DNA from: Cetorhinus maximus
Taxonomy: Eukaryota
Direction of reading: 5' to 3'
Assembly: GCF_964194155.1 (NCBI RefSeq)
Contig: NW_027597768.1
Span: forward strand, 1-64,000
Length of the DNA: 64,000 nucleotides
A model generated the notes under the pieces. It had not been told where the DNA came from. It worked only from the letters and a program-made list of their open reading frames with translations, and did no database searches. Position 1 is the first letter of the stretch, and every line of letters starts with the position of its first letter. Position numbers and translations under genes: made by a program. Below are positions 3,429 through 64,000 of this stretch, piece after piece.

Positions 3429-4301
3429 ATGGAAGGAAAAAGTACCATCCACAATAGAGAGAAACCATGGAAATGTGAGGACTGTGGGAAGGGATTCAGT
3501 TACCAGTCTAAGCTGGAAACTCATCGACGCGCTCACACTGGGGAGCGGCCGTTCACCTGCTCTGAATGTGGGAAGGGATTCACTCAGTCGTCCACGCTGC
3601 TGACACACCAGCGAGTTCACACTGGGGAGAGGCCGTTCACCTGCTCCAAGTGTGGGAAGGGATTCATTAATTTAACCAACTTGCTGACACACCATCGAGT
3701 TCACACTGGGGAGAGGTTGTTCAGCTGCTCTGAATGTGAGAAGCGATTCACTCGGTCAGCTGACCTGCTGACACACCAGCGAGTTCACACTGCGGAGAGG
3801 CCATTCACCTGTTCTGAATGTGGGAAGGGATTCACTCTGTCATCTGACCTGCTGACACACCGACGAATTCACACCGGGGAGAGGCCATTCACCTGCTGCA
3901 TGTGTGGGAAGGGATTCACAAGATCATCCCATCTACTGAGACACCAGCAAGTTCACACTGATGAGAGACCTTTTAAATGCTCGGACTGTGACAAGTGCTA
4001 TAAAAGTTCTGAGGACCTGATGTCCCATCGACGTGCTCACACTGATGAGAGACCATTCAGGTGTTCTCACTGTGGGACTGGGTTCAGGCGATCATCTGAC
4101 CTCATTGCACACCAGCGCATTCATACTGGGGAGAGGCCTTTCATCTGCTCAAAGTGTGGGAAGGGATTCACTCAGTCATCCAACCTGCTGAGACACCAGC
4201 AAGTTCACAATGGGAAGAGACCATTCACCTTGTCCTTGTGTGGAAAGGGATTCACTCAGACAGCCACCTTTCTAACATCCCATCGAGTTCTCACTGAGTG
4301 A
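3429..4301 (+). CDS. Tandem C2H2 zinc-finger protein, 9 intact fingers plus 1 degenerate (class A, MEGK start); decayed fingers continue to ~4607
   Basis: 290-aa ORF with C-x2-C...H-x3-H and TGERP linkers; acceptor ttcacAG at 3319; family 3'UTR with AATAAA ~4732. Confidence 0.85.
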
Positions 4302-4819
4302 CAGAAGGGATTCACTCAGCCATCCTATTCGCTGAAACAACAGCAAGTTCACAGTGTGGAGGGACATTTAAATGCCCATATCATGGGAAATCCTACAAAG
4401 GTTCCCGCAAGTGATATCCAATCAAAATGTTCACATCGCCAGGAACTGTTCAGGTGCTCTCACTTTAGAACTGGGTTTAGGATTTCATCTCAACTCACTG
4501 TACACCATAAACTAGTGAGTTCATAGTGGGGAAAGGCCGTTCACCTGCTGTGGGAAAGGATTTTCTCACTTATCCCACCTGCTAGTCACTAGTGACTTCA
4601 CAAGTAACTACAGAAATTGAATTTTGCTGTTAATCACATCCAGGACTGAACCATGTTCATTGAGATCTGTTGGTGCTGATGTTCATCAACACCAGCCCTG
4701 TTATGGGTGTTAATATTGAGGATAAATGTCAAATAAATCAGCACTACATTACATAGAGTATCAATTATTTTTAATATCTCTAACTCACGTTAGTTCCTTT
4801 TGAAGGTTTGTCCCTCTCC

Positions 4820-5560
4820 CCTGTCTCCTCCATCCTCAGCACCAACAACAAGTATGAGGAGCTCATTGAGCTTCTTTGTCACTAAGATTGAGACAGTCTG
4901 ATCAATTGCCTCTGCTGCTTCTCTCCCTCCCACTATCCCACTGGGCCATACTGCCTCTAAAGTTCTCCCTTTTCCGAGTCCTGAACCTTCATATTTCTCT
5001 AGTTTCCCTCCCATTTCCTCTCATGCCCCCCCAGGGATCATCTTGTCCATGAGACCTATTTCTGCTCCATCAACCCTATTCCCTCAAAATTCCTGACCAC
5101 CCAACTTCCCCATGTATACTGACTTTCTTAATGGTTCTCTCTTTAAATACTGCCCCTCTTTCCTTCATATCTGCCATCATCACCCCCTCCTCAATAAAAA
5201 CAATCCTTCACCTCAGCCGTTGTAAACTACTGCCCCTTCGCACCACCCTTTCCTCTTCAAGGTCTTTCTTACCTCCCAAATCCATGCCCCTCTTTCCTAC
5301 AACTCAATCTTTGAATCCCTCCAATAAGATTTCTGTCTCTGCCATAGTATCCAAACAACCCTAATTGAAGTCACAAATTACATCTTATTTGAGTGTGACA
5401 AAGGTAAACTACCCATCATTGTCCTTCCTGGCCTGCCTGCAGTCTCTAACATCATTGATCAAACCATCCTCCTGCAATGTCTCAGCACTGTTATTCAGCT
5501 GGAAGGGACTGCACACTCCTGATTCCTTTCTTATCTATCTAATTGTCATCAGAGGATAAC
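4820..5560 (+). mobile_element. L2 LINE ORF2 fragment
   Basis: FFVTKIET-like motif and degenerate RT N-terminal region; homologous inverted piece at 7380-7590. Confidence 0.65.
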
Positions 5561-6035
5561 CTGTAGAAACTGTGATTGTTTGAGTTATATTTTTACACAC
5601 TTGCTCACTTAGTAAGTGATCAGGTGTTAATGAACTTTGACAAAATGTTCTGTTATCACGCTCATAATGACCGCATCTTGCAAACCAAGTCTTTCTAATT
5701 ACACCAGCCCTTTTGGATAAAATCCAAAGAGAAGAGTAAAAATTTACAGTCCACCGAGCAAGCTCTTAGTCGTAAAACAAAATCTGATACTTCCCATTAA
5801 AATGCAAAGCATTATTGACCAGCTGTGGATTGCTCTGTTTCAAATTTATTGAAACAGACGCATTGCCAAGATTGGCTAACAGATCCATTGCTGGATGATG
5901 CGGATTGGGAGATGGATTTTGGCCTTTCTTATTTTGCAATCCTTATGTGATCAGAATCTCCTCCTCACTTCCCCAGATGCAGAGAAAGAAAAACTAAGAC
6001 TGGGCCTCCAAAGGTGGCCGGGTCACCCACAATCC

Positions 6036-6450
6036 CGTGCGTCTCAGAAACCGCTCTATCTGCCGCGGGTTGGCGGGCAGTTACGCGCATGCTCGAAGGG
6101 TCCTGGCCTCTTTGAGGTTGTTCCCGGAGAGAAGCCGGAAGCGGCGGATAGTGAGAGTGGAGAATGTTCATTGTTTAATATTCGGCTCTGGGGCCGCACT
6201 CGGGATTTGTAAACCCCGCCACCCCCCCCCCCCCCCCACCCCGGGGTTTATTAACCCGCTCCCGACAGTGACCTCTCACCTGACAGCTCACAATGCCCGG
6301 CTGATTGAAGGCAGCTCCGGACCAATAGGAGAGGAGGCAGGATTGGAGGACCAAATAAGGAGCGGCTGATCCTCTAACCAATCGGAGAGAACGAGGGGGC
6401 GGGCCTGAGCCTGGACCTCCCTGATTGGCTGAAATTCCGCATCATTTTGA
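6036..6450. promoter_or_regulatory. CpG-rich promoter: NRF1-like, ETS, GC box and CCAAT motifs
   Basis: acgcgcatgctc ~6083, ccggaagc ~6135, ccaat 6322 and 6378, attgg ~6424, gggcggg ~6397. Confidence 0.65.
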
Positions 6451-6779: not shown

Positions 6780-7380
6780 ACTTCTGTAAACTCCATTTAC
6801 ATGGGGTTAGAAGGGGAGGATTTGCAGGCAGGAATCTCAACAAGATCTTATGCAATCACTTCATTCATATATGGTCAGCTTCCAATTAGGAAACGAAAAA
6901 TAATTAGATAAAAGCAAAATACTGCAGTTGCTGGAAATCTGAAACAAAAACAAAAATAGATGGAAAAACTCAGCAGGTCTGACAGAATCTGTGGAGAGGA
7001 ATACAGTTAACGTTTTGAGTCTGTTTGACTTTTCTGATGAAGAGTCATACGGACTTGAAACGTTAACTGTATTCCTCTCCGTAGATGGTGTCAGACCTGC
7101 TGAGTTTTCCAGCTATTTTTGTTTTTGAAGGAGAAATAATTGTTTGTTTTGCCTGTGCATTTAAATTATCATTGAAATTGGAAAAGTACTGAGACACACG
7201 TATCAAAGTGAGAGTCTTTCAGTGAACTGTGTGTGGAAAGAGCTTTAACCAGTTTCACAGCCTGATAAAACCACAACAATCAAAGTGTGGAGAAACCACA
7301 CATAAGTTGTGTGTGGACAAGGCTTCAATCGATCATCCAACCTGGAGAGACACCAAGAAACTTGCACCATGGAGAAATCA
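6780..7380 (+). pseudogene. Truncated ZNF cassette: leader fingers up to MEK, then replaced by L2; acceptor AG mutated to AT; Penelope hairpin inserted
   Basis: CGQGFNRSSNLERHQETCTMEK followed by non-ZNF sequence; tttacAT at ~6801. Confidence 0.75.
6905..7126. mobile_element. Penelope-derived inverted-repeat hairpin with hammerhead core (7034-7066, +)
   Basis: Arms 6946-7030 and 7043-7126 are reverse complements; CTGATGA-AGAGTC-ATACG-GACTT-GAAA-CGTT. Confidence 0.75.
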
Positions 7381-10439: not shown

Positions 10440-10925
10440 GGACTGGAGGACTGATGAAGTCATCTAGTTCTCCCACCAATCAGAGTGCCTGTTAAGGGCG
10501 GGGTTTGCAGAACTAAGTGGGCGGGGCTGAGCGGTGAACCCCCTCTGGCTGCCTGGCCCAGTATTGCCCCTTATAAATATGGCGGCTGCACATTGCCCCC
10601 TATGAAGATGGCGACCGTGAACCCGGGGCCACCAACCGGAAATGCCGCCCCGAAGTGTGGCCAACGCATGACAAGTAGGTTCCTTTTCTGGTACTTGAGG
10701 CCTCCACTGGGTGTTTATCAAGCCTTTCCACCCATTCCGCCGCCTCCATTATCCTCCTACAATCGACTGTTACTCACCTGTTGCAGAGTCGAGATGACTC
10801 CCTCCCGGCGCCTTCAGCACCCACAATACGCATGCTCTAGCCACAACCCGGTAATGCGCCTGCGCAATGGCCTCCTGCAGTGAGTATAGGGCATATTCTC
10901 TTTCGACGCGAATGCTGGGTAAGAA
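10440..10925 (-). promoter_or_regulatory. CpG-rich promoter/first exon, likely for the ZNF at 8199-8900
   Basis: tgcgcctgcgca ~10855, acgcatgctc ~10828, reverse donor CAG|GTGAGT ~10777, YY1-like aagatggcg ~10605, ccaat ~10477. Confidence 0.65.
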
Positions 10926-15311: not shown

Positions 15312-17265
15312 AGAGAGTCATAGAGGTTTACAGCACAGAAGAAGGCCCTTCGGCCCATCACATCTGCGCCAGTCAAGCAAGTATCGAACTATTCTATTCC
15401 CATTTTCCAGCACTAGGCCCATAGCCTTGTATGTATGGCATCGCAAGTGCACATCTAAATACTTTTAAATGTTATGAGGGTTTCTTCCTCTACCACCCTT
15501 TCAGGTGGTGAGTTCCAGATTCCCACCACGCTTTGGGTGAAAAATTTCTTCCTCACATCCCCTCTAAACCTCCTGCCCCTTACCTTAAATCTATGCCCCC
15601 TGGCTATTGATCCCTCCACCACAGGGAAAAGTTCCTTCCTGTCTACCCTATCTATGCCCCTCATAATTTTATACACCTCAATCATGTCCCCCCTCAATCT
15701 CCTCTGCTGCAGGGAAAATAACCCCAGTCTATCCAATCTCTCCTCACAACTAAAACTCTCCAGCCCAGACAACATCCTGGTAAATCTCTTCTGCACTCAC
15801 TTTAGTGCAATCACATTCTTCCTATAATGTGGATTCCAGAACTGCACACAATACTCTAACTGTGGCCTAACCAGCATTTTATACAGTTCCAGCATAACCT
15901 CCCTGCTCTTATATTCTATGCTTTGGCTAATAAAGGCAAGTATCCCATATGCCTTCTTATCCACTTGTCATGCTATCTTAAGGGACCGGTGGACATGCAT
16001 ACCAAGGTCACTCTGATCCTCAGTACTTCCCAGGGTCCTACCATTCATCGTTTATTCCCGTGCCTTGTTTGCATCACCTCACACTTATCCGGGTAAATTC
16101 CATTTGCCACTGATCAGCCCATCTGAACAGCCTGTCTATATCCTCCTGTTATCTAAGGCTATCCTCCTCACGATTTACCAACCAACCAATTTTCATGCCA
16201 TCCGCGAACTTACTGATCAACCCTCCTACATTCAAGTCTAAATCGTATATATATACCACAAACAGCAAGGGACCCAACACCGATCCCTGTGGAACCCCAC
16301 TGGACACTGGCATCCAGTCACAAAAACACCCCTCGACCATCACCCTCTGCTTCCTGCCACTCAGCCAATTCTGGATCCAATTTGCCAAATTGCCTTGGAT
16401 TCCATGGGCTCTTATCTTCGTTATCAGTCTCCCATGCGGGACCTTATGAAAAGCCTTGCTGAAATCCAAGTAGACTACGTCAAATGCATTACCCTCATCT
16501 ACACACCTGGCCACCTCTTCGAAAAATTCAATCAAATTGGTCAGACATGACCTCCCCTTAAAGAAACCATGCTGACTGTCCTTGATTAATCTCTGCCTCT
16601 CCAACTGTAGATTAATTCTGTCCCTCAGAATTGCTTCCAATAGTTTCCCCACCACTGAGGTTAGACTGACTGGCCTGTTGTTCCCTGATTTATCCCTTCC
16701 TCCCTTCTTGAATAATGGTACCACATTGGCTGTCCTCTGGCACTTCTCCTGTGGCCAGAGAGGAATTGAAAATTATTGCCAGCATCCCTGCTATCTCCCC
16801 CCGTGCCTCACTCAACAGCCTGGGATATAATTCATTCGGGCCTGGAGATTTATCTACTTTTAAGCCTGCCAGACCATTTAGAACCTCCTCCCTTTCAATG
16901 CTAATTTCTTTAATTATATCACAGTCCTTCTGCCTGATTTCCATACCCACGTCGTCCCTCTCACTTGTGAACACCGACTCAAAGCATTCAAACCCTACCT
17001 ACTTCTTCTGGCTCCACACACAAATTACCACTATGGTCCTTAATGGGTCCTACTCTTTCCCTAGTTATCCTCTTACTCTTAATGTACTTGTAAAATAACT
17101 TTGGATTTTCCTTTATTTTATCTGCCAATGTTTTTTCATGCCCCCTTTTTGCTCTCCTAATCTCCTTTTTAAGTTCCCCCCTACACATTCTACATTCCTC
17201 TTGGGCTTCCGCTGTTTTGAGCCCAGGGTATCTGCCATAAGCCTCGCTTTTTCTCTTTATCCAAT
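15312..17265 (-). mobile_element. CR1 LINE, 5'-truncated, RT to 3' UTR
   Basis: ORFs 16149..16724 (DFSKAFHKVPH, SGVPQGSVLGP, KFAD), 15455..15796, 16690..16974, 16988..17275. Confidence 0.9.
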
Positions 17266-19265: not shown

Positions 19266-19685
19266 TTACTTGTGAACTCGCTGGTGTCTCTGTAGGTGGG
19301 ATTAATTAATGAATCTCTTCCCACATATGGAGCAGTTGAATGGCCTCTCCCCAGTGTGAACTTGTTGGTGTGTCAGGAGGCTGGATGACTGAGTGAATCC
19401 ATTTCCACACACAGAGCAGGTGAACGGTTTCTCCCCAGTGTGGATACGTTGGTGTGTCAGCAAATCTGGTTTTCTTTTCAAGCTCTTCTCACAGTCAGAA
19501 CATGTAAACGGTTTATCAGAATGAACAAGTTTGTGTGTCTGAAGGCAGGACAACCGAGTGAATCCCTTCTCACACATGGGGCAGGTGAACGGCCTCTCCC
19601 CAGTGTGAGTGCATCGATGAGCTTCCAGGTGGGATGGGGAACTGAATCTCTTCTCACAGTCCCCACATTTCCACGGTTTCTCCAT
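19266..19685 (-). CDS. Short C2H2 ZNF, 4 intact fingers; fifth finger cut by TAA (19302-19304); possibly a pseudogene
   Basis: ORF 19302..19685 [10 protein letters not shown]; the frame continues SHLQRHQRVHK* to 19266; leader 19690-20050. Confidence 0.65.
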
Positions 19686-22353: not shown

Positions 22354-22944
22354 CTAGATGTGCACACGCTGGTGTCTCAGCAGATGTGATGAATGAGTGA
22401 AACCCTTTCCACAGATGGAACAGGTGAATGGTGTCTCTCTATTGTGAATCCCCTGGTGTGTTAGCAGCCTGGATGAAACAGTGAATCCCTTCCCACACAC
22501 CAAGCAGGTGAACAGCCTCTCCGCAGTGTGAACTCGCTGATGTGCCAGAAGGAGGGATGAGGAAATGAATCCTTTCCCACACTCGAAGCAGGTGAATGGC
22601 TTCTCTCCGGTGTGAACTCGCTCGTGCGTCAGAAGACGGGATGAAACAGTGAATCGCTTCCCACAGACAGAGCAGGTGAACGGCCTCTCCCCAGTGTGAA
22701 CTCACTCGTCTGTCACAAGATGGGATGCACAACTAAACCCCTTTCCACATACAGAACAAATGAATGGTCTCTCCCCAGTGTGAACTCGCTGATGTGTTAG
22801 CAGGATAGATGACTGAGTGAATCCCTTCCCACACACGGAGCAGGTGAATGGCTTCTCCTCAGTGTGAGTGCGTCGATGAGTTTCCAGCTTGGATGGGTAA
22901 TTGAATCCCTTCCCACAGTCCCCACATTTCCATGGTTTCTCCAT
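22354..22944 (-). pseudogene. C2H2 ZNF, 7 fingers, in-frame TGA in finger 3 (22702-22704); further decayed fingers at ~22200-22330; leader to acceptor ~23310
   Basis: [23 protein letters not shown]; GAC GAG TGA GTT CAC ACT GGG; frame continues to TAG at 22354. Confidence 0.8.
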
Positions 22945-23629: not shown

Positions 23630-24030
23630 GCCCCCAAATTACCAGATTCATTCAGCTCAGTATCACAACCTGCCTTTCTGTTTTTCTGATTCCCTCACAC
23701 TCCCTTGTCCTGTTTTAAATTCATTTTTCAACGTGTTGGAAGAGGTGGATTTACAGACGGGAAACACAAACCGAACATCACATCAAGATCTGACAGAATC
23801 ATGAGGACCTGAATATCATCGGCCTTTGAACATGGAAGCAAAGGGACCCGTTTCCAGCCTGGATAAACCGTATACGTGTTTTGTGTGTGTGGCCGAGGCT
23901 TCAGCTCTTCTGCCCGAAGACAAAACCAGCGCAGTCACACTGGAGAGAAACTGGAAATGTGGGGACTGTGGAAAGGTTTTCAGTTACCCATCAGAGCTGG
24001 AAATTCATCGGTGCAGTCACACCAGGGTCA
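23630..24030 (+). pseudogene. Class-A-like ZNF fragment lying inside the intron of the opposite-strand ZNF
   Basis: Upstream sequence matches 3220-3430; MEAK...[24 protein letters not shown], then stops abruptly. Confidence 0.7.
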
Positions 24031-25723: not shown

Positions 25724-26125
25724 GGAGGTTAGAAGGGGAGGATCTCACTGTCACTTGATTCAGCAGAACCTGAATATCACTGGCCTTTGAATGAGGAAGG
25801 GTAAACGTTTGTCTATTCTGTCTGTGGAAAAAGATTTCAAACATCACTGTGACTGATAAAGCACCAAGACATTCACACACCCGAATGAGAGTGTTCCAGT
25901 GCACTGGCTGTGGAAAGAGTTTTAATCCGTTACACAGACTGAATAAAAATCACACCATTCACAGCAGGGAAAAATCATTCATGTGTTCTGCTTGTGAACA
26001 AGGCTTCAACTGATTGTCCAGCCTGGAGAGACACAAGGACATCAGGTCCTCTGAGAAACCATGGAAATGTGGGGACTGTGGGAAGGGATTTATTTCCCCA
26101 TCAAAGCTAGAAACTCATCAACGCT
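25724..26125 (+). pseudogene. First, tandemly duplicated ZNF leader plus partial WKC finger
   Basis: [25 protein letters not shown], then restarts into a second leader at ~26126. Confidence 0.7.
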
Positions 26126-26328
26126 CTGTCTCTTTCTGACATTTTTAAACATCAATGTGAATGGAAAAACACAGAGACACGCACCCCTGACTGCGAGTGT
26201 TTCAGTGGATTGACCGTGGAGGGAGCTCTAACCAGTTACACAGCCTGAAAAAATATTGCACCATTCACAGCAGAGAGAAGCCGTACACATATTCTGTGTA
26301 CAGATGAGGCTTCAGCTGACTGGCGAAC

Positions 26329-27177
26329 ATGCAGAGACACAAGGACACCTGCACCATAGAGAAACCGTGGAAATGTGGGGACTGTGGGAAGAGATTCCGT
26401 TCCCCATCTGCACTCGAAATTCATCGACGCATTCACACGGGGGAGAGGCCATTCACCTGCTCTCAGTGTGGCAAGGGATTCAATCACTCATCACATCTGG
26501 TTACACACAAGCGAGTTCACACCGGGGAGAGGCCGTTCACCTGTTCCGTGTGTGGCAAGGGATTCACTCAGTCATCACACCTGCGGTTGCACCAACGCGT
26601 TCACACTGGGGAGAGGCCGTACATCTGCTCCGTCTGTGGGAAGGGATTCAGTGAATCATCCACCCTGCAGAACCACAGTGTTGTTCACACTGGGGAGAGG
26701 CCATTCACTTGCCCCGTGTGTGAGAAGGGATTCACTCGGTTAACCAACCTTCTGTGGCACCAGATAGCGCACACCGGAGAGAGACCATTCACTTGCTCCG
26801 TGTGTGGGAAGGGATTCACTCGGTCAACCAGCCTGCGGGCACACCGACGTGTTCATACTGGAGAGAGGCCATTCTCCTGCTCTGAATGTGGGAAGGGATT
26901 CCCAAATTCATCCAGCCTATGGAAGCACCGGCGAGTTCACACCGGGGAGAGGCTGTTCTCCTGCTCTCTGTGTGGGAAAGGATTCACTGAATCATCCAAC
27001 CTGCTGAGACACCAGCGTGTTCACACTGGGGAGAGGCCTTTCACCTGTTCTGAGTGCGAGAAGGAATTTGCTGATACATCCAGCCTGCGGAAGCACCGCC
27101 GAATTCACACAGAGGAGAGAGCCCGTTCACCTGCTCTGAGTGTGCGAAAGGATTCATGGAGTCATCCAACCTGCTGA
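26329..27177 (+). CDS. C2H2 ZNF, 9 intact fingers; frameshift ~27120; array cut by an LTR at 27231
   Basis: 282-aa ORF; out-of-frame fingers continue to 27230. Confidence 0.75.
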
Positions 27178-39031: not shown

Positions 39032-39874
39032 ATGGAGAAACCATGGAAATGTGGAGACTGTGGGAAGGGATGCAAAACCCCATCACAGCTGGAGATTCAT
39101 CTACGCAGTCACACTGGGGAGAGGCCATTCACCTGCTCTGAATGTGGGAAGGGATTCACTCAGTCATCCACCCTGCAGAAGCACCAGCGAGTTCACACTG
39201 GGGAGAGGCCGTTCACCTGCTCTGAGTGTGGGAAGCGATTCACTCAGTCATCCAGCCTGATGGCACACCACATCACTCACACCAATGAGAGACCCTTTAA
39301 ATGCTCTGACTGTTTGAGTGGCTTCAAAAGTGCGGCAGATCTAAGGGTCCACCGACGCATTCACACTGAGGAGAGACCGTTCAGCTGCTCTTACTGTGCA
39401 AAGAGGTTTACAACGTCATCCAACCTTTGGACACACCAACGCATTCACACTGAGGAGAGACAATTCAGTTGCTCTTACTGTGCAAAGAGGTTTACAAAGT
39501 CATCCAACCTTTGGACACACCAATGCGTTCACACCGGGGAGAGGCCGTTCATCTGCTCTGAGTGTGGGAAGGGATTCACTCAGTCTTCCAACCTGCGGTC
39601 ACACCAGCGAGTTCACACCAGGGAGAAACCATTTGCCTGCCCTGAGTGTGGGAAGGAATTTATTCAGTCCTCCAGCCTGCGGGCACACCAGCGAGTTCAC
39701 ACCAGGGAGAAACCATTTGCCTGCCCTGAGTGTGGGAAGGAATTTATTCAGTCCTCCAACCTGCGGGCACACCAGCGAATTCACACTGGGGAAAGGCCGT
39801 TCACTTGCTCCGTGTGTGAGAAGGGATTCACTCGTTCATCACACTTACTGAGACACCAGCGAGTTCACGAGTGA
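39032..39874 (+). CDS. C2H2 ZNF, 10 intact fingers
   Basis: accATGg MEKPWK within ORF 38957..39874; acceptor at 38679; 3'UTR AATAAA ~40138. Confidence 0.9.
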
Positions 39875-44877: not shown

Positions 44878-45849
44878 TCATTGGTTTGCACTGTGGGTGG
44901 ATGACTTCCTGAACCTCTTCCCACTAGAAGTGCAGCTGAATGGCTTCTCCTCAGTGTGACTTCGCTGGTGTCTTAGCAGGCTGGATGATTGGGCAAATCT
45001 CATCCCACACACAGAGCAGCTGAACAGCCTCTCCCCGGTGTGAACTCGCTGGTGCAACATGAGACTGGCTGACTGAGTAAATCCCTTCCCACATACGGAA
45101 CAGGTGAATGGTCTCTCCTGAGTATGAACTCGCTGGTGTGTCAGCAGGTTGGATGACTGAGTGAATCCCTTCCCACACACAGAGTAGATAAATGGTCTTT
45201 CGCCAGTGTGACCTCGCTTGTGTACAGTGAGACTAAATGGAGACTTGAACCTCTTTCCACAGGAAGTGCAGCTAAATGGCCAATCCTCAGTGTGAACTCT
45301 CTGGTGTAACATGACACCAGCTGATTGAGTGAATCCCTTCCCACACACGAAGCATGTGAATGGCCTCTCTCCAGTGTGAACCCGTTGATGTGCGACGAGG
45401 GTGGAAGAATGCCTGAACCTCCTTCCACAAGAAGTGCAGCTGAATGGTCTGTCCTCAGTGTGAATTCGCTGGTGTAACATAAGGCCGGCTGACTGAGTAA
45501 ATCCCTTCCCACACTCAGAACAGGTGAACGGTCTCTCCCCAGTGTGAATGCGTTGATGAGTTTCCAACAAGCATCGATAATTGAATCCCTTCCCACAGTC
45601 CTCACATTTCCACTGTTTCTCCATGGTATGGGTGTTCTTGTGTCTCTCCAGGTGGAAAATCAATAAAAGCCTTGTCCACACAGAACAAGTGTATGGTTCC
45701 TCCCCACTGCGAATTGTGTGATGTTGTTTCAGGCTGTGTAACTTGTTAATTCTCTTTCCACACTCAATGCACTGGAACACTCTCACTCGGGTGTGAGTGT
45801 GTCTTGGTGCTTTTCCAGTCACACTGGAAAAGAAAGAACAGACAAACAT
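44878..45849 (-). CDS. C2H2 ZNF, 7 intact fingers from MEKQWK (ATG 45624) plus degenerate ones; the leader is open in frame from ATG 45849
   Basis: ORF 44878..45867 (the track's start codon is TTG); decayed last finger and family 3'UTR at ~44790-44600. Confidence 0.75.
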   Translation of the reverse strand: MFVCSFFSSVTGKAPRHTHTRVRVFQCIECGKRINKLHSLKQHHTIRSGEEPYTCSVWTRLLLIFHLERHKNTHTMEKQWKCEDCGKGFNYRCLLETHQRIHTGERPFTCSECGKGFTQSAGLMLHQRIHTEDRPFSCTSCGRRFRHSSTLVAHQRVHTGERPFTCFVCGKGFTQSAGVMLHQRVHTEDWPFSCTSCGKRFKSPFSLTVHKRGHTGERPFIYSVCGKGFTQSSNLLTHQRVHTQERPFTCSVCGKGFTQSASLMLHQRVHTGERLFSCSVCGMRFAQSSSLLRHQRSHTEEKPFSCTSSGKRFRKSSTHSANQ

Positions 45850-46269
45850 TTCTCTTTCCACATCCAAAGGCCGATGATATTCAGGTCCTGATGATTGAAT
45901 GACTGTCAGATGTTGATGTAACGTTTGGTTTGAGTTTCTCGTCTGTAAATCGTCCTCCTTTAATTGTCCTGTAAAATGCGTTTACAAAAGTCATCACTCT
46001 CAGTGCAGGAAAAGATCGTAACAGACAAATCAAGTTTTTGTGAAACAATTTTCTTCTTATGTTCCCCCAAAACTGAAAATTCCCGTCTCACACACTCTCC
46101 CACACCCGTGCTGAAGTTCCAACCCATCACACTATCTGTTACCATTTCTTTCTTCCACTCCCAATTTTCCCCCTCCCTTTACTAAGCCTGGATTGTTTTC
46201 CAGCCCCTGCACACAGACTGAGAATAAAATTAATGAATCAATCATTTTCTCTCCTAGTCACTGGGACCC

Positions 46270-48777: not shown

Positions 48778-49144
48778 ATGGACAGCCACGAGGACACCGG
48801 CACCACGGATAAACTGTGGAAATGTGGGGACTGTGGGAAGGGGTTTGTTTCCCCATCAAAGCTGGAAATTCATCGACGCAGTCACACTGGGGGGGAGGCC
48901 ATTCACCTGCTCTGTGTGTGGGAAGGGAATCATTAATTCATCCAACCTTCTGAGACACCAGTACATTCACACTGAGCAGAGTTCAGTCGTTTGCTCTGTG
49001 TGTGGGAAGGCAATCAGCCATTCATTGAACTTTCAGAGATGCCAGCAAACACACAGTGGACAGTGGCCGTTCACCTGCTCCGTGTGTGGGAGGGGATTCA
49101 CTCAGTCATGCTCCTGGCTGTCATATCAGCGAGTTCATAAGTGA
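48778..49144 (+). pseudogene. Degenerate 4-finger ZNF with frameshift after finger 1 and collapsed leader
   Basis: [37 protein letters not shown], then an expanded G-run shifts the frame; His ligands lost in fingers 3-4. Confidence 0.75.
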
Positions 49145-50664: not shown

Positions 50665-52440
50665 AGGGAAAAGAATAGGTCTCATAAGGGACAAAGGGGG
50701 CAATCTATGGGTGGAGCCAGAGGACATCGCTAGAGTGTTGAATGAATACTTCATGTCCATCTTCACCCAAGAGAATGAGGATGAAGGTATTGAACTTGGG
50801 GAGAGAGACTGTGAGGTCCTTAAGCAAATTGATATAGGGAGTGACAAGGTATTGGAGATGTTGGCAGGCTTAAAAGTGGACAAATCTCCAGGTCTGGATG
50901 ATTTATGTCCCAGACTGCTAAGGGAGGCAAGGGAGGAGATCACAGGGACTCTGACACAAATTTTTAATTCCTCTCTGGTCACGGGGGAGGTGCCAGAGGA
51001 TTGGAGAACAGCCAATATGGTTCCGCAATTTAAGAAGGGTTGTAGAGATAAGCCAGGGAAATACAGGCCAGTGAGTCTCACGTCAGTGGTTGGGAAACTG
51101 TTGGAGAAAATTCTGAAGGAGAGAATCTATCTCCAATTTGGAGAGGCAAGGTTTGATCAGGGATAGTCAGCATTGCTTTGTCAGAGGGAGGTCATGCCTA
51201 ACAAATTTGATTGAAGTTTTTGAGCAGGTAGATGAGGGTAGTGTAGTTGATGTAGTTTATATGGATTTGAGCAAAGCCTTTGACAAGGTCCCACATGGGA
51301 GACTTAGAAAGAAGGCAAATGCACATGGGATACAGGGTAATTTGATAAGGTGGATTCAAAATTCGCTTAGTTGTAGGAGGCAGAGGGTGATGACAGAAGG
51401 ATGCTTTTGTGACTGGAAGCCAGTGTCCAGTGGCATACCACAGGGATCAGTGCTCGGTCCCCTATTATTTTTCATTTATATAAATGACATAGATAACTAT
51501 GTGGAGGGTAGGATTAGTAAGTTTGCGGATGACATAAAGATTGGCCGGGTGGTTAACAGTGAGGTTGAGTGTCTTGGGTGACAGGAAGATATAGATGGGA
51601 TGGTCAAATGGGCAGATAAATGGCAGATGGAATTTAAACCTGAAAAGTGTGAGATGATACACTTTGAAAGGAGTAATTTGACAAGGAAGTATTCAATGAA
51701 CGGCATGGCACTAGGAGGTTCTGAGGAACAAAGGGACTTTGACGTGTGTGTCAATCGATCTCTGAAGGCAGAGGGGCACGTTAGTGGGGTGGTGAAAAAG
51801 GCATATGGAACACTTGCCTTTATCAATCGAGGCATAGATTAAAAAAGTAGGGAGGTCATGTTGGAGTTGTATAGAACCTTGGTGAGGCCACAGCTGGAGT
51901 ACTGTGTGCAGTTCTTCTCACCACATTATAGGAAGGATGTGATTGCACTGGACGGGGTGCAGAGGAGATTCACCAGGATGTTGCCTGGGATGAAACATTT
52001 AAGTTATGAAGAGAGGTCGGATAGATTTGGGTTGTTTTCGTTGGAGGAGAGAAGACTAAGGGGCGACCTGATCGAGGTGCACAAGATTATGAGGGACATG
52101 GACAGGGTGGATAGGGAGCAGCTGTTCCCCTTATTTGAAGGGTCAGTCACAAGGGGGCATAAGTTCAAGGTGAGGGGCAGGTGGTTTAGGGGGTATGTGA
52201 GGAAAAACTTTTTTACCCAGAGGGTGGTGACAGTCTGGAATGCACTGCCTGGGAGGGTGGTGGAGGCGGGTTGCCTCACATCCTTTAAAAAGTACCTGGA
52301 TGAGCACTTGGCACGTCATACCATTCAAGGCTCTGGGCCAAGTGCTGGTAAATGGGATTAGGTAGGTAGGTCAGATGTTTCTCATGTGATGGTGCAGACT
52401 TGATGGGCTGAAGGGCCTCTTCTGCACTGTGATTCTGTGA
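50665..52440 (+). mobile_element. CR1 LINE, 5'-truncated, RT to 3' tail
   Basis: ORFs 50711..51166, 51138..51581, 51600..51842, 51858..52361; inserted within an opposite-strand CR1 end (50595-50665 / 52441-52930). Confidence 0.9.
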
Positions 52441-53309
52441 TCATGGCTGATCCTCTGTCTCAACGCCATAATTCCACTCTCTCCCCATACCCCTTGATGC
52501 CTTTAGAGTCTAGAAACCTAAGCATTTCCTTCTTAAATATATTCAGTGACTAGACCTCCACAGCCTTCGGTTCACCGCTCTCTGCTTGAAGAGGTTTCTA
52601 CTCATGTCAGTTCTAAATGTCCTACCCCGTATCCTGATATTGTGACCCCTTGTTCTAGACCCCCCCAGCAAGAGGCGACATCATCCCTGCATCCAGCCTG
52701 TCCAGCCCTGTCAGAATTTTACTCGTTTCAATGAGATCACCTCTCATTCTTCTAAACTGCAGTGAATACAGGCCTAGTCGGCCCAATCTCTACTCATTCG
52801 ACAATCCTGCCATCACAGGAATCAGTCTGGTGAACCTTCACTGCACTCCATCTTTGAAAAGTATATCCTTTCTTAGGTAAGGAGACAAAAACTACACACA
52901 ATACTCCAGGTGTGGTCTCACTGTACAGCTGCAGTAACACAAGGGTTGAATTGGATGGCCAAAACTTCTCGCAGTCCCTGCAGGGTCATGTTTAGTTGAA
53001 TTTCTGGAACATTGTGGCCCTCCTCCCCGGTATTATTCGGGTTGATTGGTGTGAGGCAAAATGTTATTTGCCTGATCGATCAGGTAGTGCCCCCATGTGT
53101 GCCTGTGAGTATGTGAGTGGGTGTCTGTGTGTGTGAGTGATGTGTAAAACCTGACATCTGTGCAACCAGACCCCACTTATTTAGTAAGAACATGCAGTGT
53201 CTGTTGTTTTCCAGATCCCTTCCTTTCCCCTGACTATTATCCTCAGGTAGTACACAAATTCCTTGTGCACATCGTCCTCCAGCGCACCCATTGTTCCCAT
53301 GAATCACCC

Positions 53310-53620
53310 GAGCAGTGAGATGGAGCATGCGCAGTGCGGCTGTTGAGGCCGGATAGCAGTGCGCAGGCGCAGTGTCGGGAAGTCTGGAGCATGCGCAGTG
53401 CGATTGATGGCCTTGCGGGTAGAGGCGCCTGCTTGTCCCGGAGAAGCGGAGTCAGAGCGAGGCGGTGGGTGGGAGGATTTGGAAACACTTTGTGGATCCA
53501 CAAACCCTGAGGAATAATTATCAGCTCCTGGTTTGCAGCTGCGGGGCTTCTCCCTCCCGGGAACAGGCCCAGGTTAACGGCCGCCATCCTGGGTCAGCGA
53601 GTGGAGGATGGTTCACATCA
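53310..53620 (+). promoter_or_regulatory. CpG-rich promoter/first exon of the ZNF at 54403
   Basis: tggagcatgcgcagtgcg twice (53321, 53385), tgcgcaggcgca 53360, YY1-like gccgccatc ~53580. Confidence 0.7.
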
Positions 53621-54402
53621 GAGGATGGGGGAGGGGGGACAATAAATAAGAGGTTACACTTTGCGCTCAAATCAATGAGGATCTGATCTGTGGGAAGGAA
53701 GGAAACCCTGGGAGGTGGGCGGGGAGGATTCAGAAACACCCGCTGGAGGCCCCGAACCCCCAATAAGACTCATTGATTTTATTGTCAGTCTGCAGACAGG
53801 AGCTGGAGAACTGAACCCAGGCAGAGGAGAGGGAGGGAGAAAACTGGGAGTGGAGGAAAGAAATGGTGGAGATGGTGAGATGGGTTTGGATTTCAGCCCA
53901 GGGAGGAGGGAGAGTGTGTGGGATGGGGATTTACAGCTTTGGGGGAACAAGAGAGGAAAATATGTTCCATCGAAAGTAGAATTGTCTTTTCTGAATTCTG
54001 TCCTGGACTGACAGTGATGACCTTTGCAAACTCCTTTTACAGGTTAGATGAGGGTTTGCAGATGGGAAACTTGAAGCAAACATCACGTCAAGATCTGACA
54101 GAGTCACTCAATTCATTTGAACCTGAGCATCATCGGCCTTCGAATGTGGAAGGATAAATATTTGTCTCTTCAGTCGGGGAGGGGGAAGATTTCAAACATT
54201 TGTGTGACTAAAAAAGCGGCAAGACTCACACACCCGAGTGAGAGTGTTCCAGTGCACTGACTGTAGAAAGATCTTTAACCGGTTACACAGCCTGAGAAAG
54301 CATCACATTGTTTGTAGTGGGGAGAAACCATAAACGTGTTCTTTATGTGGATGAGACTTCAACTGATCATTCAGCCTCGAGAAACACAAGGATACCGGCA
54401 CA

Positions 54403-55161
54403 ATGGGGAATCCGTGGAAATGTGGGGACTGTGGGAGGGGATTCAAATGCCCATCCACGCTAGAAACTCATCGACGCAGTCACACAGGGGAGAGACCATT
54501 CACCTGCTCTGTGTGCGGGAAGGGATTCACAGAATTATCCAGTCTCCAGTCACACCAACTCATTCACACTCAGGAGAAGCCATTCAGCTGCACTTTCTGT
54601 GGAAAGAGCTTCAGGCAGTCAGGCACTCTCATTACACACCGGCGAGTTCACACAGGGGAAAGGCCGTTCACCTGCTCTGTGTGTGGGAAGGGATTCACTA
54701 AGTCATCCAACCTGCTGACACACCAGCGAATTCACACTGGGGAGAGGCCATTCACCTGCACTGTGTGTAGCAAGGGATTCACACGGTCATCCCACCTGCT
54801 GATACACCAGCGAGTTCACACTGGGGAGAGACCGTTCATCTGCTCCGTGTGTGGAAAAGGATTTACTGATTCATCCTGCCTCCTGTCACATCAACAAACT
54901 CACACTGAGGAGAGACCGTTCAGCTGCACTTACTGCGGAAAGAGGTTCAGGAGTTCATCACACCTCATTGCACACCAACGAGTTCACACTGGGAAGAGGC
55001 CGTTCACCTGCTCCGAGTGTGGGAAGGGATTCACTAAGTCATCAAACCTACTGACACACCAGCGAGTTCACACTGGGGAGAGGCCGTTCACCTGCTCCAA
55101 GTGTGGGAAGGGATTCATTAATTCATCCAAACTTTTGGCACACCAGCGAGTTCACAAATGA
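54403..55161 (+). CDS. C2H2 ZNF, 9 intact fingers
   Basis: 252-aa ORF; acceptor at 54042; family leader and 3'UTR. Confidence 0.9.
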
Positions 55162-56519
55162 CTGCAGGGACTGGATTATTCTGTTAATCACATCCAGGAC
55201 TGAATCATTCTGACAGTTCAGCTTTGGTTCTGCTGAAGTTAATACCCCCGGTAACTGGGCTTGATCTTAGTATTTGTAACTGTAGCTAATTGTGTTCTAG
55301 GGGCTGCAATTTTTAAGAACTGCTGTCTGTGACCTTCCCTGTAGTTCAGGAACTTGCATTAGTCGTTAGTTCAGAACAATATTATGAACTTTTTCTTCAA
55401 TCCTAAATTGATCTTTGGTACGAACTCTACAATTCAGTGACTGAAAGGTTTCACTGATTAACATCTCCATTTAGAAAGTGCTGATTAATCCTTGCTGACA
55501 ATTCTTACTGACATACATATTACACACAGTGACAACTCCATTATCCACCAGAAAGAAGGGGAATGAGAATTGGTGGAGAATCAAGAGTCCCCAAATATTA
55601 CCCCTCCCGTCTGGTACAGAAATCCCTCGAGTGGGAATGGAGACAAGTCCAATCCATGTCACGGGCTGTAGGAAATCACCATCTATTAACCGTAAGAAAT
55701 CTTAAGTAAGTTGTTGACTATTGTAGAAATAACTCTCTTTCTTATGAAAAAAGACTCCATAGCAGCTTGGTGCTGACAAGCATGGATAGGGCTGTTGTCT
55801 GAGGACATGTCTCTAGCACAGGCCCTGAAGCAAGACATTTCTAACCCTGATACAACTGGATCCCATGACCCAGATGTAAAGCAGCTGTCTGTTTTTTTTA
55901 AATTCAATTCATTCATAGGATGGAGACGTCGCTGGCTCAGCCAGCATTTATTGCCCTTGTTCAGAGGGCATTTTAAGAATCAACCACATCACTGTGGGTC
56001 TGGGGTCACATGTAGGCCAGACCAGATAAGGACAGCAGATTTCCTTCCCTAAAGAACATTAGTAAACTAGATGAGTTTTTTATGACAATGATTTCATGGG
56101 CATCAGTTTTTTTTTAATGAATTCAAATTTCACCATCTGCCATGGTGGGATTCAAACCCAGGTCCCCAGTGCATTAATCTGGCACTCTGGAATACCAGTC
56201 CAGTGACAATACCACTACTCCACCACCTCCCCAATGACTGTGTAAAGGTTAACACAGGCTCTTGAGAGGAAAAAAAAATCTCTTTGACTAGGAAGAAAAT
56301 TCCATACTGATCCATATTGGCTCCAGTACAACACCCACACTTTGGCACACACCAGCAAACTGTTGAGAAGAGACCGCTGCCATCAGCTACAGAGCCCAGC
56401 ACTTACTCTGCATCATCCATCTGTTTGTTCTCCGGGACAGTAAACTGTTCTCACTCCATCAGCTTCAAGGATCTCTTTCTGAAAGGGCTCCAGCCATGAG
56501 TCTGTAGCATGTGGGGTGT

Positions 56520-58759: not shown

Positions 58760-58819
58760 CTCGTCCATGAGAGTAACCGAAGGCATGAGGACTGAAATAA
58801 TCTGGAGTAATGATGAGGT

Positions 58820-59521: not shown

Positions 59522-60364
59522 TCACTTATGAACTTGCTGGTGTCTCAGCAGGTACGATGAACAAGTGAATCCCTTCCCACAGACGGAGCAGGTGAATGGT
59601 CTCTCCCCAGTGTGAGTGTGTCGGTGTCTCTGCAAGTGAGATAACTGAGTGAATCCCTTTGCACACACGGAACAGGTGAATGGCCTCTCCCCAGTGTGAA
59701 CTCGCTTGTGATTCAGCAGGGTAGATATCTGAGTGAATCCCTTCCCACAGGCGGAGCAGGTGAATGGCCTCTCTCCAGTGTGAGTGCGCTGGTGAATCTG
59801 CAGATACAGTTTGCCTTTAAAGCTCTTCCCACAGTCGGAACATTTAAAAGGTCTCATGTCAGAGTGAACTCGCTGGTGTCTCAGAAGGTGGGCTGAAATG
59901 GTGAATCGTTTCCCACACTCAGAGCAGGTGAATGGTCTCTCCCCAGCGTGAGTTCTCTGGTGTTTCAGCAGGCTGGATGACTGAGTGAATCCCTTCCCAC
60001 ACACGGAGCAGGTGAACGGCCTCTCCTCAGTGTGAATTTGTTGGTGCATCAGCAAAACCTTTTTGCTTTTAAAGCTCTTCTCACAGTCAGCACATTTAAA
60101 AGGTCTCATGTCAGAATGAATAAGATGGTGTGACGTGAGGTCGGTTACTTGACTGAATCCCTTCCCACACTTGGAGCAGGTGAATGGTTTCTCCCCAGAG
60201 TGAGTTCTCTGGTGTTTTTGTAAGCTGGATGACTGAGTGAATCCCTTCCCACATACGGAGCAGGTGAACGGTCTCTCCCCGGTGTGACTGTGTCAATGGA
60301 TTTCCAGCACGGACGGGGATCTGAAGCCCTTCCCACAGTCGCCACATTTCCACGGTTTCTCCAT
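59522..60364 (-). pseudogene. C2H2 ZNF, 10 fingers with an in-frame TGA in finger 1 (60293-60295); downstream ORF 59522..60109 keeps 7 fingers
   Basis: ATG GAG AAA CCG TGG...ATC CAT TGA CAC AGT CAC; otherwise one continuous frame of 843 nt. Confidence 0.8.
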
Positions 60365-61699: not shown

Positions 61700-62450
61700 C
61701 TGCCCGCAATTCAACCTATCAATGGCGGCTCATTTACCCAGAACAGCCAGCGCTCCAGAAGATCCCCTATCAATGACTATAGGAGTCCAGTGCGCAGGTG
61801 CAGTGTGGGTGTGCGCTCTGAGCATGCTCAGTGTCAGTCATGGTGACAGAGTGAGGAGGAGCGGACGGTTTGGGAGGCGGGAGGAGATTGTGAGCACAGG
61901 GTAGGAATGGAAACCGCGGCTGTACTGGGAACTGGATCAACTTCTGGGGTAGGCCTGAGACCCCGAATAAGAGGCCCGAAACCCCGCGTTTACCGCGCGG
62001 TGACAGGCCCGGGGACAGCGGGCTCACTGGCCGCCATCTTGCGAGTCGGGGCGGGGCGGATCCGGGAGGCGGGGCTTCCTCCCCAGTGACAGACCCGGGT
62101 TATTAAAACAAAAATTGCAGGAAAAACTCGGCAGGTCTGACATCATCTGGGAAAAGAAAGACAGAGTTGACATTTCGAGTCCGTATGACTCTTCTTCAGA
62201 ATTGAAGAGAAGTAGAAATGTGGTGAAATATATATGTTAAAGGGCGGGGCGGTGGGGGGGGGTGCGGCGTGGGACTGGTGAAGCTGGATAGGAGGCCAGT
62301 GATAGGTGAAGGCAAAGGAGAATCCGATTACCCGGGCAACAGGCCGCCGCCATCATGGGAGAGGAAGGCGGGGCTTGTTCAATGAGGGGGCTCTTGGGCG
62401 GCCATCTTGGTGAGGTAAGAGGCAGTGGGCGGGGACTCAGGGACCCATTG
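61700..62450. promoter_or_regulatory. CpG-rich promoter between divergent ZNFs, interrupted by a Penelope fragment (62100-62320, -)
   Basis: tgcgcaggtgcagtg 61791, gagcatgctcagtg 61820, YY1 gccgccatcttg 62030, ggcggccatcttg 62397. Confidence 0.65.
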
Positions 62451-62488
62451 GCCTGTGCAGCATTGTAAGATGGAATTCACTTCCCCAG

Positions 62489-62702
62489 AACAAAAACAGA
62501 ATTACCTGGAAAAACTCAGCAGGTCTGGCAGCATCGGCGGAGAAGAAAAGAGTTGACGTTTCGAGTCCTCATGACCCTTCAACAGAACTCGAAACGTCAA
62601 CTCTTTTCTTCTCCGCCGAGGCTGCCAGATCTGCTGAGTTTTTCCAGGTAATTCTGTTTTTGTTTTGGATTTCCAGCATCCGCAGTAGTTTTTTGTTTTT
62701 AT
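62489..62702. mobile_element. Penelope-derived near-perfect hairpin with target-site duplication
   Basis: Arms ~62489-62566 and ~62587-62666; flanks ttcacttccccag (62476) and ttcacttcccag (62703). Confidence 0.8.
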
Positions 62703-63510
62703 TTCACTTCCCCAGAGATCAGTGAAGGCTGGGTCATTGCACATTTTCAAGGCTGAGTTAGCTGCATTAATTTTTGATCCACAAGGCAGTCATGGGTTAT
62801 GGGTGCGAGGAGAAATGTGGCGTGAAGGCCAGAATCAAATCAGCCATGATCTCACTGAGCAGGCTTGATGGGCCGAATGGCCTCTGCTGCTGTTATTTCT
62901 CACAATCTTATGAAGGTGGGCTGCTTCAGCGAGCGGAGTGCATGTTTGGCCATCTTGTTGGGGAACAGAGAATTGGTGGAACTTCAGCATCCCAGTCATC
63001 AGGAGATAAGAGGGGAACGTATGTGAAACAGGGTGTTAAACCTTCGGGGAACCAAGAGAGAAAAAAATGCTTCATAGAAACTAGAATTTTTCACTCTGAA
63101 TTTCTGGTCTTTCCTGACAGCGCTAACTTTTGTAAACTCCTTTTACAGCATATCAGAAAGGGAGGATTTGAAAATGGAAAGCTCAAACCAAACATCACAG
63201 CAAGATCTGACAGAGCCACTTGTTTCATCAGGACCTGAATATTATCCGCCTTTGAGTGTAGCAGGAGAAATGTTTGTCTGTTTACCCGTGGGAAAAGATT
63301 TCAAGCATCAGTGTGACTGGAAAAGCACCAAGACACACACACCCATGTAAGCATGTTCCAGTGAATTGACTGTGGAAAGAGTCTTAACCAGTTAAACAAC
63401 CTGTAAAACATTACCCCATTCACAGTGGAGAGAAACCACACACATATTCTGTATGTGGATGAGGCTTCAACTGATCATCCAATCTGGAGAGACACAAAGG
63501 CACCCACACT

Positions 63511-64000
63511 ATGGAGAAACCATGGAAATGTGGGGACTGTGGGGAGGGTTTCAGTTACCCTTCTGAACTGGAAATTCATCGACGCGCTCACACTGGGGAG
63601 AGACCATTTACCTGCTCCAATTGTGGGAAGGGATTCACTCAGTCGTCCAGCCTGCTGACACACCAGTATGTTCACACTGATCAGAGACCTTTTGAATGTT
63701 CTGACTGTCAGAAGAAATTTAAAAGCAAAAAATATCTTCTCAGACACCAACACATTCACAGTGGGGAGAAGTCATTCACCTGCTCCATGTGGGAAGGGAT
63801 TCACTGCTACATCTAACCTGCAGAAACACCAGCGAGTCCTCACAAATGAAAGACCTTTTAAATGCCCAGACTGTGGGAAGTGCTTTAAAAGTTCTGGGGA
63901 AGTGATATGCCATCAACGTGTTCACACAGACGAGAGACCGTTCAGATGCTGTCACTGTGGGACTGGGTTCAGGCGATCATCTGAACTCACTGTACACCAG
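63511..64000 (+). pseudogene. C2H2 ZNF, 3 fingers then a 2-nt deletion frameshift (~63790); array continues past the window end
   Basis: TGC TCC ATG TGG GAA GGG in place of ...ATG TGT GGG AAG; downstream KCPDC and RCCHC fingers are in another frame (could also be a sequencing error). Confidence 0.75.

What the first reader, a model, noticed from the sequence alone, without database searches (positions are those of the whole stretch)
3460..63600. Conserved atypical first finger (W-K-C-G/E-D-C...P-S-x-L-E-x-H) as candidate effector module
All 14 readable copies begin the array with the same distinctive finger: Trp instead of Phe/Tyr before C1, an acidic GD/ED knuckle, usually Pro at helix +1 and always Glu at +5 (e.g. 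3429, 19685, 22944, 26360, 34300, 39032, 45624, 54403, 60364, 63511). It never recurs internally although other fingers are duplicated freely. Inference: a protein-interaction or corepressor-recruiting finger that stands in for KRAB.
Basis: partly seen in the sequence, partly recalled or inferred. Interest (0 to 1): 0.7.

Follow-up and report, generated by a model that had tools for sequence, protein, structure and literature searches.

The report
Lead finger of shark zinc-finger family
A cluster of shark zinc-finger genes shares one unusual lead finger, inherited from an old shark-and-ray gene; it still looks like a DNA-reading finger, with a few fixed surface residues that might also bind a partner protein.

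Summary
The motif is real: 14 copies, W/K/D/E+5 in 14 of 14, Pro+1 in 12 of 14, none among 76 internal fingers. The window is a KRAB-less C2H2 gene cluster of a lamniform-type shark. The finger is not ancestrally first: 12 of 14 copies have dead fingers in front (omega about 1), eight start at a Met standing where the linker has Gly, other sharks keep an in-frame finger ahead of it, and a conserved shark/ray gene carries the same helix as an internal finger with Tyr, not Trp. Its base-contact sites diversify between paralogues as fast as finger 2's (helix +3 faster than all 331 non-coding control pairs), so it probably reads DNA. It shares only 54% DNA identity with internal fingers, which can explain why it is not shuffled inward. 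Overall it is not clearly more constrained than finger 2. What survives of the effector idea: Glu+5, knuckle Asp and Pro+1 are nearly fixed across sharks and rays, off the base-reading positions. A dual DNA-plus-partner role is open (about 0.25); a pure KRAB substitute is unlikely (about 0.07).

The parts
3468..3536 (+). lead finger of gene 3429-4301 (short MEGK-type cassette, preceding finger deleted; 9 canonical fingers, open)
   Evidence: orthologue in Carcharodon XP_041031536
8793..8861 (-). lead finger of gene starting 8900 (MEGK type; stop after 4 canonical fingers)
19605..19673 (-). lead finger of gene starting 19685 (stop in finger 5)
22864..22932 (-). lead finger of gene starting 22944 (stop in finger 3)
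23952..24020 (+). lead-type finger behind a frameshifted preceding finger (MEGK type, truncated gene)
26062..26130 (+). truncated lead finger, first copy of a local tandem duplication; no ATG
26368..26436 (+). lead finger of gene 26329-27177 (ATG 13 codons upstream; 9 canonical fingers, open)
   Evidence: orthologue in XP_041031536
34220..34288 (-). lead finger of gene 34300-33545 (8 canonical fingers plus one shortened, open)
39044..39112 (+). lead finger of gene 39032-39874 (10 fingers, open)
45544..45612 (-). lead finger of gene 45624-44878 (7 canonical fingers, open)
48817..48885 (+). lead finger of a gene frameshifted after finger 1
54415..54483 (+). lead finger of gene 54403-55161 (9 fingers, open)
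   Evidence: AlphaFold model of fingers 1-3
60284..60352 (-). lead finger with an in-frame stop at helix +8
63523..63591 (+). lead finger of gene starting 63511 (frameshift after finger 3)
54158..54402 (+). example of the block of three dead fingers (A, B, C) before the start codon; homologous blocks begin at 19934-, 23187-, 25805+, 26153+, 34533-, 38797+, 45849-, 48686+, 60610-, 63270+
   Evidence: stops, frameshifts, omega 1.06
54029..54157 (+). acceptor-like pyrimidine tract and AG, then a decayed spacer that was once in frame with the fingers; shared by the cassettes
   Evidence: splicing not shown
53201..53600 (.). CpG island upstream of gene 54403; two putative RNA runs have contigs beginning at 53471
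   Evidence: RNA status is a guess of the tool; weak hint
6791..7375 (+). 15th cassette: spacer and dead fingers, broken just after the start codon, no lead finger

Best explanation
The finger is the inherited 5' anchor of a whole-gene cassette that multiplied in elasmobranchs, and it works as the first DNA-reading finger of each protein. Shown: it descends from a finger that is internal in an older gene; in most copies here the fingers in front of it died and translation can start at a Met that replaced the linker Gly, which left it first; its DNA is too unlike the internal repeats (54% identity) for the unequal crossing-over that copies them. Inferred: helix +3 and -2 were retuned after each gene duplication to change target sequence, as in other poly-zinc-finger families; the fixed Trp, Asp, Pro-Ser and Glu mainly keep the fold and helix start of an end finger. 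How these KRAB-less proteins affect transcription is then not explained by this finger (steric blocking, or an effector not seen here).
For: Dead upstream fingers: omega 1.06, ligand codons 1.27, in 11 copies. In-frame finger ahead of it in 8 of 37 signature-selected and 6 of 36 Trp-selected fingers of other sharks. Conserved gene in Rhincodon, Stegostoma and Mobula, and a Scyliorhinus paralogue, carry the NYPSELETH helix as an internal finger with Tyr. Contact sites -1/+3/+6: non-synonymous rate 2.19 [1.49-3.37] times non-coding, omega 3.0, p 6e-5; finger 2: 2.39; no difference, p 0.86. Against an empirical null of 331 non-coding base pairs, +3 exceeds all (p 0.003) and -2 has p 0.042; the same sites in dead fingers B and C are not fast. 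+3 is Glu, Lys or Gln in 29 of 36 relatives, residues that read T/5mC, G and A (PMC12264921). Identity to internal fingers mean 0.54, maximum 0.67, against 0.70 (maximum 0.97) among internal fingers. Canonical linker and fold; model matches DNA-bound arrays (TM 0.93 to 1mey). Non-contact constraint not clearly above finger 2; invariant non-ligand codons 4 vs 3.
Against: Glu+5 is acidic in 36 of 36 Trp-selected fingers and in skate-type fingers with a different hairpin, while +5 varies freely in other fingers; fold stability alone is a weak reason for that. Of the three classical contacts only +3 is individually fast; -1 is mostly Tyr/Ser and +6 Thr/Ile, poor base readers, and +10, not a contact site, is also fast (p 0.009). 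Pro at +1 occurs in a known spacer finger (HIC2 ZF2, PMC12264921). The tree is star-like with weak support, 8 of 14 copies are broken genes, and gene conversion was not tested. No binding data.
Confidence: 0.6

Rival explanations
1. Dual role: the finger reads DNA through +3/-2 and also offers a fixed surface (Glu+5, Arg+8/+9, knuckle Asp, in sharks Trp) to a common partner such as a corepressor or another finger, so the family carries its effector inside the array.
For: E+5 35 of 36 (D 1), knuckle D 35 of 36, Pro+1 33 of 36, R+9 33 of 36 across shark and ray proteins; same helix kept in skate-type lead fingers with another hairpin (P0018, unnamed P0229); kept after loss of the finger in front; no KRAB/SCAN; of three N-terminal fingers lost or kept across subtypes this is the one always kept. 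Precedent: REST's finger recruits CoREST and 50 human repression domains overlap C2H2 fingers (passages of 10.1101/2022.08.26.505496).
Against: The residues were picked because they are conserved; within the window each invariant codon has p about 0.09 against non-coding pairs and finger 2 has nearly as many. Third positions of the first ten codons are also slow (0.43), so part of the invariance is at DNA level. In the conserved shark/ray gene all fingers are conserved, so it does not single this one out. The dead fingers A and C also have Glu at +5 in most copies.
Confidence: 0.25
2. One reading: a finger that has left DNA and serves only as a KRAB-like effector module.
For: Atypical helix (Tyr/Ser at -1, Pro at +1, Thr/Ile at +6); Zfp568 ZF1, which has Thr-Pro-Ser at the helix start, makes inter-finger contacts according to a figure legend of PMC12264921; family lacks KRAB.
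Against: Diversification concentrated at +3 and -2, equal to finger 2, is not expected of a surface binding one shared corepressor; canonical linker to finger 2; internal position and Tyr in the older gene; net charge still positive (+1.7 vs +2.2).
Confidence: 0.07
3. No special protein function: the signature is founder sequence kept by slow substitution, CpG-avoiding mutation bias, gene conversion between gene starts, or a DNA/RNA-level constraint around the start codon.
For: 8.8% of non-coding base pairs are invariant too; synonymous rate 0.73 overall and third positions 0.43 in the first ten codons; broken copies keep the signature 8 of 8.
Against: Non-synonymous rate at W/K/G/D 0.08 [0.01-0.26] is below even the local third-position rate; Pro/Glu kept across sharks and rays with different hairpins and different start codons; immediately adjacent dead finger C evolves at 0.95.
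Confidence: 0.08

Closest known systems
Lineage-specific poly-C2H2 gene clusters under positive selection at helix -1/+3/+6 (Emerson and Thomas 2009, PMC2604467)
   Same: Tandem paralogues, birth and death, canonical linkers, fast contact residues.
   Different: Elasmobranch family; whole coding region is fingers only; one fixed lead finger and dead fingers in the leader.
KRAB zinc-finger genes of sarcopterygians
   Same: Clustered; acceptor-like site, spacer, then all fingers in one exon; CpG-island promoters.
   Different: No KRAB match; spacer is decayed and out of frame; start codon lies inside the finger exon.
FiNZ-ZNF genes of cyprinids (Wells et al. 2023, PMC10547256) and KRAB-like ZNFs of ray-finned fish (PMC11603059)
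   Same: Large non-KRAB family in a fish lineage defined by a shared N-terminal hallmark; plausible role against retroelements.
   Different: Their hallmark is a non-finger domain; here it is a complete C2H2 finger whose contact sites vary. No repression data here.
C2H2 fingers that recruit or dimerise: REST C-terminal finger (CoREST), IKZF C-terminal pair, Drosophila CGx-Phi single fingers (PMC12774644)
   Same: Show that one C2H2 finger can be an effector.
   Different: Those stand apart from the DNA-binding array (recalled for REST and IKZF; abstract for CGx-Phi); this one is joined to finger 2 by a canonical linker and has no extra strand.
Conserved elasmobranch gene annotated ZNF696/697-like (Stegostoma P0301, Mobula P0304, Rhincodon P0005)
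   Same: Same helix, knuckle Asp and Glu+5, preceded by a finger with the same helix as dead finger C.
   Different: Internal finger, Tyr instead of Trp, whole array conserved between shark and ray.

Membership tests
Classical DNA-binding C2H2 finger | C-x2-C-x12-H-x3-H spacing with hydrophobic core | tested here: met
   Cys, Cys, Leu, His 14 of 14; second His 13 of 14 (one truncated); ligand/core omega 0.04
Classical DNA-binding C2H2 finger | beta-beta-alpha fold and canonical linker into a tandem array | tested here: met
   pLDDT about 90, helix 17-28, TM 0.93 to 1mey; a model, not a structure
Classical DNA-binding C2H2 finger | Specificity residues diversify between paralogues | tested here: met
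   +3 and -2 fast; -1 and +6 not individually
Classical DNA-binding C2H2 finger | Measured base-specific binding | not testable with these tools
   needs SELEX or ChIP
KRAB-ZNF / SCAN-ZNF | KRAB or SCAN domain N-terminal to the array | tested here: not met
   Profiles built from fetched proteins hit 153 and 63 of 339 proteins, 0 of 58 chondrichthyan-type ones, nothing in six frames of the window; Pfam none. Exons outside the window and divergent ancestral KRAB are not excluded.
FiNZ-ZNF | FiNZ domain before the fingers | not tested
   No FiNZ profile on hand; open frames leave only 4-13 residues before the finger, too few for a domain unless spliced in
Effector C2H2 finger (REST/IKZF type) | Separated from the DNA-binding array | tested here: not met
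   Canonical 28-residue spacing to finger 2 in 11 of 12 copies that have one, the twelfth frameshifted in the linker; 29 of 36 relatives
Effector C2H2 finger (REST/IKZF type) | Conserved surface outside the base-reading positions | tested here: inconclusive
   E+5, knuckle D nearly fixed across species but not beyond finger 2 overall within the window
Effector C2H2 finger (REST/IKZF type) | Binds a corepressor or represses when tethered | not testable with these tools
   no shark corepressor sequences or assay available

The most novel reading that the evidence does not exclude
Sharks and rays, lacking KRAB, built a large zinc-finger family whose only shared element is one finger that both reads DNA and, through a fixed Pro-Ser-x-Leu-Glu-x-His-Arg-Arg helix face, docks a common silencing partner; everything N-terminal to it was dispensable and repeatedly lost, making it a third, independent solution beside KRAB and FiNZ.
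Probability: 0.2. Interest if true: 0.75.

Novelty: new variant of a known kind. Interest (0 to 1): 0.36.

Why it matters
Cartilaginous fishes lack the KRAB families (PMC8455134 passage) yet carry clustered poly-finger genes, and how such finger-only proteins act is open. This finger is a usable marker for the family across sharks and rays and gives a sharp test: +3 swaps for DNA reading, Glu+5 and Trp mutants for partner binding. If only the best explanation holds, it is an ordinary case of a divergent edge repeat in a birth-and-death family, with a neat record of fingers turned into leader sequence.

Tried and rejected
No whole genome is held, so all DNA tests rest on 14 copies. Homodimer prediction of the finger: no verdict, not used either way. 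Pfam, PDB sequence search, fold search and ESM Atlas gave only generic C2H2 matches. The two profile searches were dominated by long multi-finger proteins, so the 36-37 relatives are a small, biased sample, many from stitched Heterodontus gene models; no holocephalan protein appeared, which is no evidence of absence. A search with the N-terminal part of P0005 found shark and ray orthologues but no clear bony-vertebrate one among 319 candidates. Sequencing runs: no holder on record as RNA; laid contigs showed no splice joint among the 15 joints listed of 296 and cannot show starts or levels. An upstream coding effector exon was sought: none found; the N-terminus of Scyliorhinus P0323 is in frame with the spacer but part of it weakly matches window DNA at 55875-56066 outside any gene (E 0.006), so it may be a mis-called leader. 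Read-through of the shared TGA codons in dead fingers was dropped because frameshifts and omega about 1 show the block is non-coding. The p value printed for dead finger A alone is an optimiser artefact and was not used. Earlier scan notes: nothing by place or sequence.
Full report
Setting. The window holds a cluster of C2H2 zinc-finger genes on both strands among retroelement fragments. Two genes (3429 and 26329) have near-identical orthologues in a Carcharodon carcharias gene model, XP_041031536, so the source is most likely a lamniform shark (inference). No genome is held.

Observation. There are 14 W-K-C-(G/E)-D-C fingers. W, K, knuckle D and E+5 are 14 of 14, Pro+1 12 of 14; among 76 internal fingers W and E+5 are absent and Pro+1 occurs once. 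In 5416 fingers of 282 other fetched proteins W occurs 6 times and Pro+1 with E+5 7 times. The acidic knuckle is not distinctive (32 of 76 internal fingers). Six copies have long open arrays, eight are truncated or frameshifted.

Anatomy. Each copy is a cassette: acceptor-like tract, spacer of about 40 codons, then fingers. In 11 copies one to three further fingers (A, B, C) lie between spacer and the Trp finger; they carry stops and frameshifts and evolve neutrally (omega 1.06, p 0.69; ligand and core codons 1.27). In eight of them the first possible start next to the finger is a Met where the standard linker has Gly; two have a Met 13 codons up, inside dead finger C; one has none. Three copies are of a shorter type starting M-E-G/A-K; one has a frameshifted finger before the Trp finger, two have lost it. 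In other sharks this short type usually keeps that finger in frame: 8 of 37 fingers selected by signature, 6 of 36 selected by Trp alone (many of the rest are gene models that begin at the Met or are stitched). So first position is a derived state reached more than once.

Origin. Whale shark, zebra shark and devil ray share a gene whose array is nearly identical; its second tandem finger has the helix NYPSELETH, knuckle Asp and Tyr in place of Trp, and follows a finger with the helix of dead finger C. A Scyliorhinus paralogue has the same pair and a spacer 40-51% identical to the window's, in frame. Sawfish has the Trp form (P0051); a skate protein and an unnamed similar one have the helix with another hairpin (P0018, P0229). 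The old signature is therefore Pro+1, Glu+5, Arg+8/+9 and Asp, not Trp and Gly, and it predates the shark-ray split (a few hundred million years, recalled).

Selection. I fixed a tree with branch lengths from 490 upstream non-coding columns (star-like, weak support) and fitted codon rates relative to it. Ligand and core codons 0.03. All 13 non-contact, non-ligand codons: 0.39 against 0.63 for finger 2; the difference is marginal (p 0.051 for rate, 0.55 for omega). Contact codons -1/+3/+6: 2.19 [1.49-3.37], omega 3.0, p 6e-5; finger 2 2.39. With an empirical null of 331 non-coding base pairs in the 11 long-type copies, +3 is faster than all (p 0.003), -2 p 0.042, +10 p 0.009, -1 and +6 not significant; each invariant codon has p 0.09; finger 1 has four invariant non-ligand codons, finger 2 three. 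Third positions of the first ten codons are slow too (0.43; finger 2 0.68). Across species, selected on Trp only, +5 is Glu 35 and Asp 1 of 36, knuckle Asp 35 of 36, Pro 33 of 36, while +3 is Glu 12, Lys 9, Gln 8; the next finger varies at +5 and at the knuckle but has its own near-fixed residues. Between orthologues of the window and Carcharodon 1 of 54 contact residues differs: specificity changes between paralogues and is then kept.

Why it never moves inward. Its DNA is 54% identical to internal fingers (maximum 67%), which are 70% identical to each other (17% of same-gene pairs at 80% or more). Low identity should exclude it from unequal crossing-over (inference). It did duplicate once together with its dead upstream block (26062/26368).

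Structure and domains. An AlphaFold model of fingers 1-3 is a canonical three-finger array (pLDDT 90.8; TM 0.93 to 1mey). No KRAB or SCAN in six frames of the window or in 58 chondrichthyan-type proteins, with working positive controls; Pfam finds only finger families and nothing in eight open frames at CpG islands. Contigs of three putative RNA runs of relatives cover the CpG island from about 53471-53521 and one bridges dead finger C and the start of the Trp finger; this is a weak hint that the dead fingers are leader sequence.

Mechanism. Most likely (0.6) the finger is the first DNA-reading finger, retuned at +3 and -2, and its fixed residues serve fold and helix start. A dual role with a partner-binding face is the main rival (0.25), since Glu+5 lies outside the five base-reading positions and is kept through loss of the neighbour and change of hairpin. 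A pure effector (0.07) fits the fast +3 badly; DNA-level inertia alone (0.08) does not explain cross-species retention.

Literature seen. PMC12264921: abstract passage, sections 11 and 12, figure-legend passages (five specificity positions, which map to helix -2, -1, +2, +3, +6; Glu, Lys, Gln read T/5mC, G, A; Pro at helix start in spacer HIC2 ZF2). PMC2604467: passages (positive selection at -1, 3, 6). PMC10547256: abstract, introduction, term search with no hit for cartilaginous, catshark, Chondrichth or Scyliorhinus in the main text; supplements not read and may list shark counts. PMC8455134: passages (KRAB among families lost in cartilaginous fishes). PMC11603059, PMC10380595, PMC8096226: passages. 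10.1101/2022.08.26.505496: passages. PMC12774644: abstract and outline. Eight full-text searches listed no paper describing this family or finger; the library lacks most subscription journals, and the proteins are in public annotation under generic names.

Verdict. Observation confirmed, interpretation partly supported. A new variant of a known kind: a KRAB-less elasmobranch poly-finger family with a fixed lead finger that probably still reads DNA. Interest 0.36; 0.75 if the dual role (0.2) holds.

Noticed in passing
window 54158-54402 + and homologous blocks (e.g. 19934-, 38797+, 45849-, 60610-): Dead finger A begins with ATG in several copies and has a stop 15 codons on in all 10 copies that hold it, i.e. 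a shared short upstream frame; the four intact long-type genes have 2-5 ATGs between acceptor and start, which could damp translation.
   Followed up: partly
window 26329 + and 48778 +: Two copies lost the linker Met and have a Met 13 codons upstream inside dead finger C; the Carcharodon orthologue of the first has it too.
   Followed up: partly
window 3429-4301 + and 26329-27177 +: Contact residues are almost fully conserved with Carcharodon orthologues (1 of 54 differs), though paralogues differ strongly.
   Followed up: yes
P0005, P0301, P0304 (Rhincodon, Stegostoma, Mobula): A gene with a nearly identical finger array in sharks and a ray looks like a conserved founder-type member of the family; no clear bony-vertebrate orthologue found.
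   Followed up: partly
P0176 residues about 1776-1830: In one Carcharodon paralogue finger 2 carries a copy of the lead finger's helix start, with Lys in place of Glu+5.
   Followed up: no
P0323 residues 189-239: Scyliorhinus paralogue keeps the spacer open and in frame behind an acidic N-terminal region; may be a coding ancestor state or a mis-called leader.
   Followed up: partly
first ten codons of the lead finger, all copies: Third codon positions are unusually slow (0.43 of non-coding; Cys TGT 28 of 28, Asp GAC 14 of 14), perhaps CpG avoidance, conversion or a constraint near the start codon.
   Followed up: partly
ends of genes 8267-, 19334-, 33613-, 39806+, 49076+, 55093+, 59590-: Terminal finger, stop and first part of the 3' region are shared as well, so both ends of the cassette are fixed.
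   Followed up: no
window 6001-6300, 10601-10900, 24901-25300, 35001-35400, 46201-46800, 53201-53600, 61701-62300: CpG islands upstream of the cassettes, several between divergent genes, with YY1- and NRF1-like patterns (patterns recalled).
   Followed up: no
window 28570-29262 +: Integrase core (rve, E 3e-8) of an LTR retroelement behind gene 26329; the same stretch follows the orthologue in the Carcharodon model, so the insertion is older than the species split.
   Followed up: no
window 16152-16772 -, 35736-36509 +, 50663-51163 +, 43050-44219 -, 30683-31402 -: LINE-type reverse transcriptase fragments, a zf-RVT match and a weak GIY-YIG match (E 0.009) between the genes.
   Followed up: no
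12 of 76 internal fingers, e.g. 3978+, 39302+, 60094-: A second recurring finger type with Lys/Arg at helix -2 is interspersed in the arrays and is also present in the conserved shark/ray gene.
   Followed up: no
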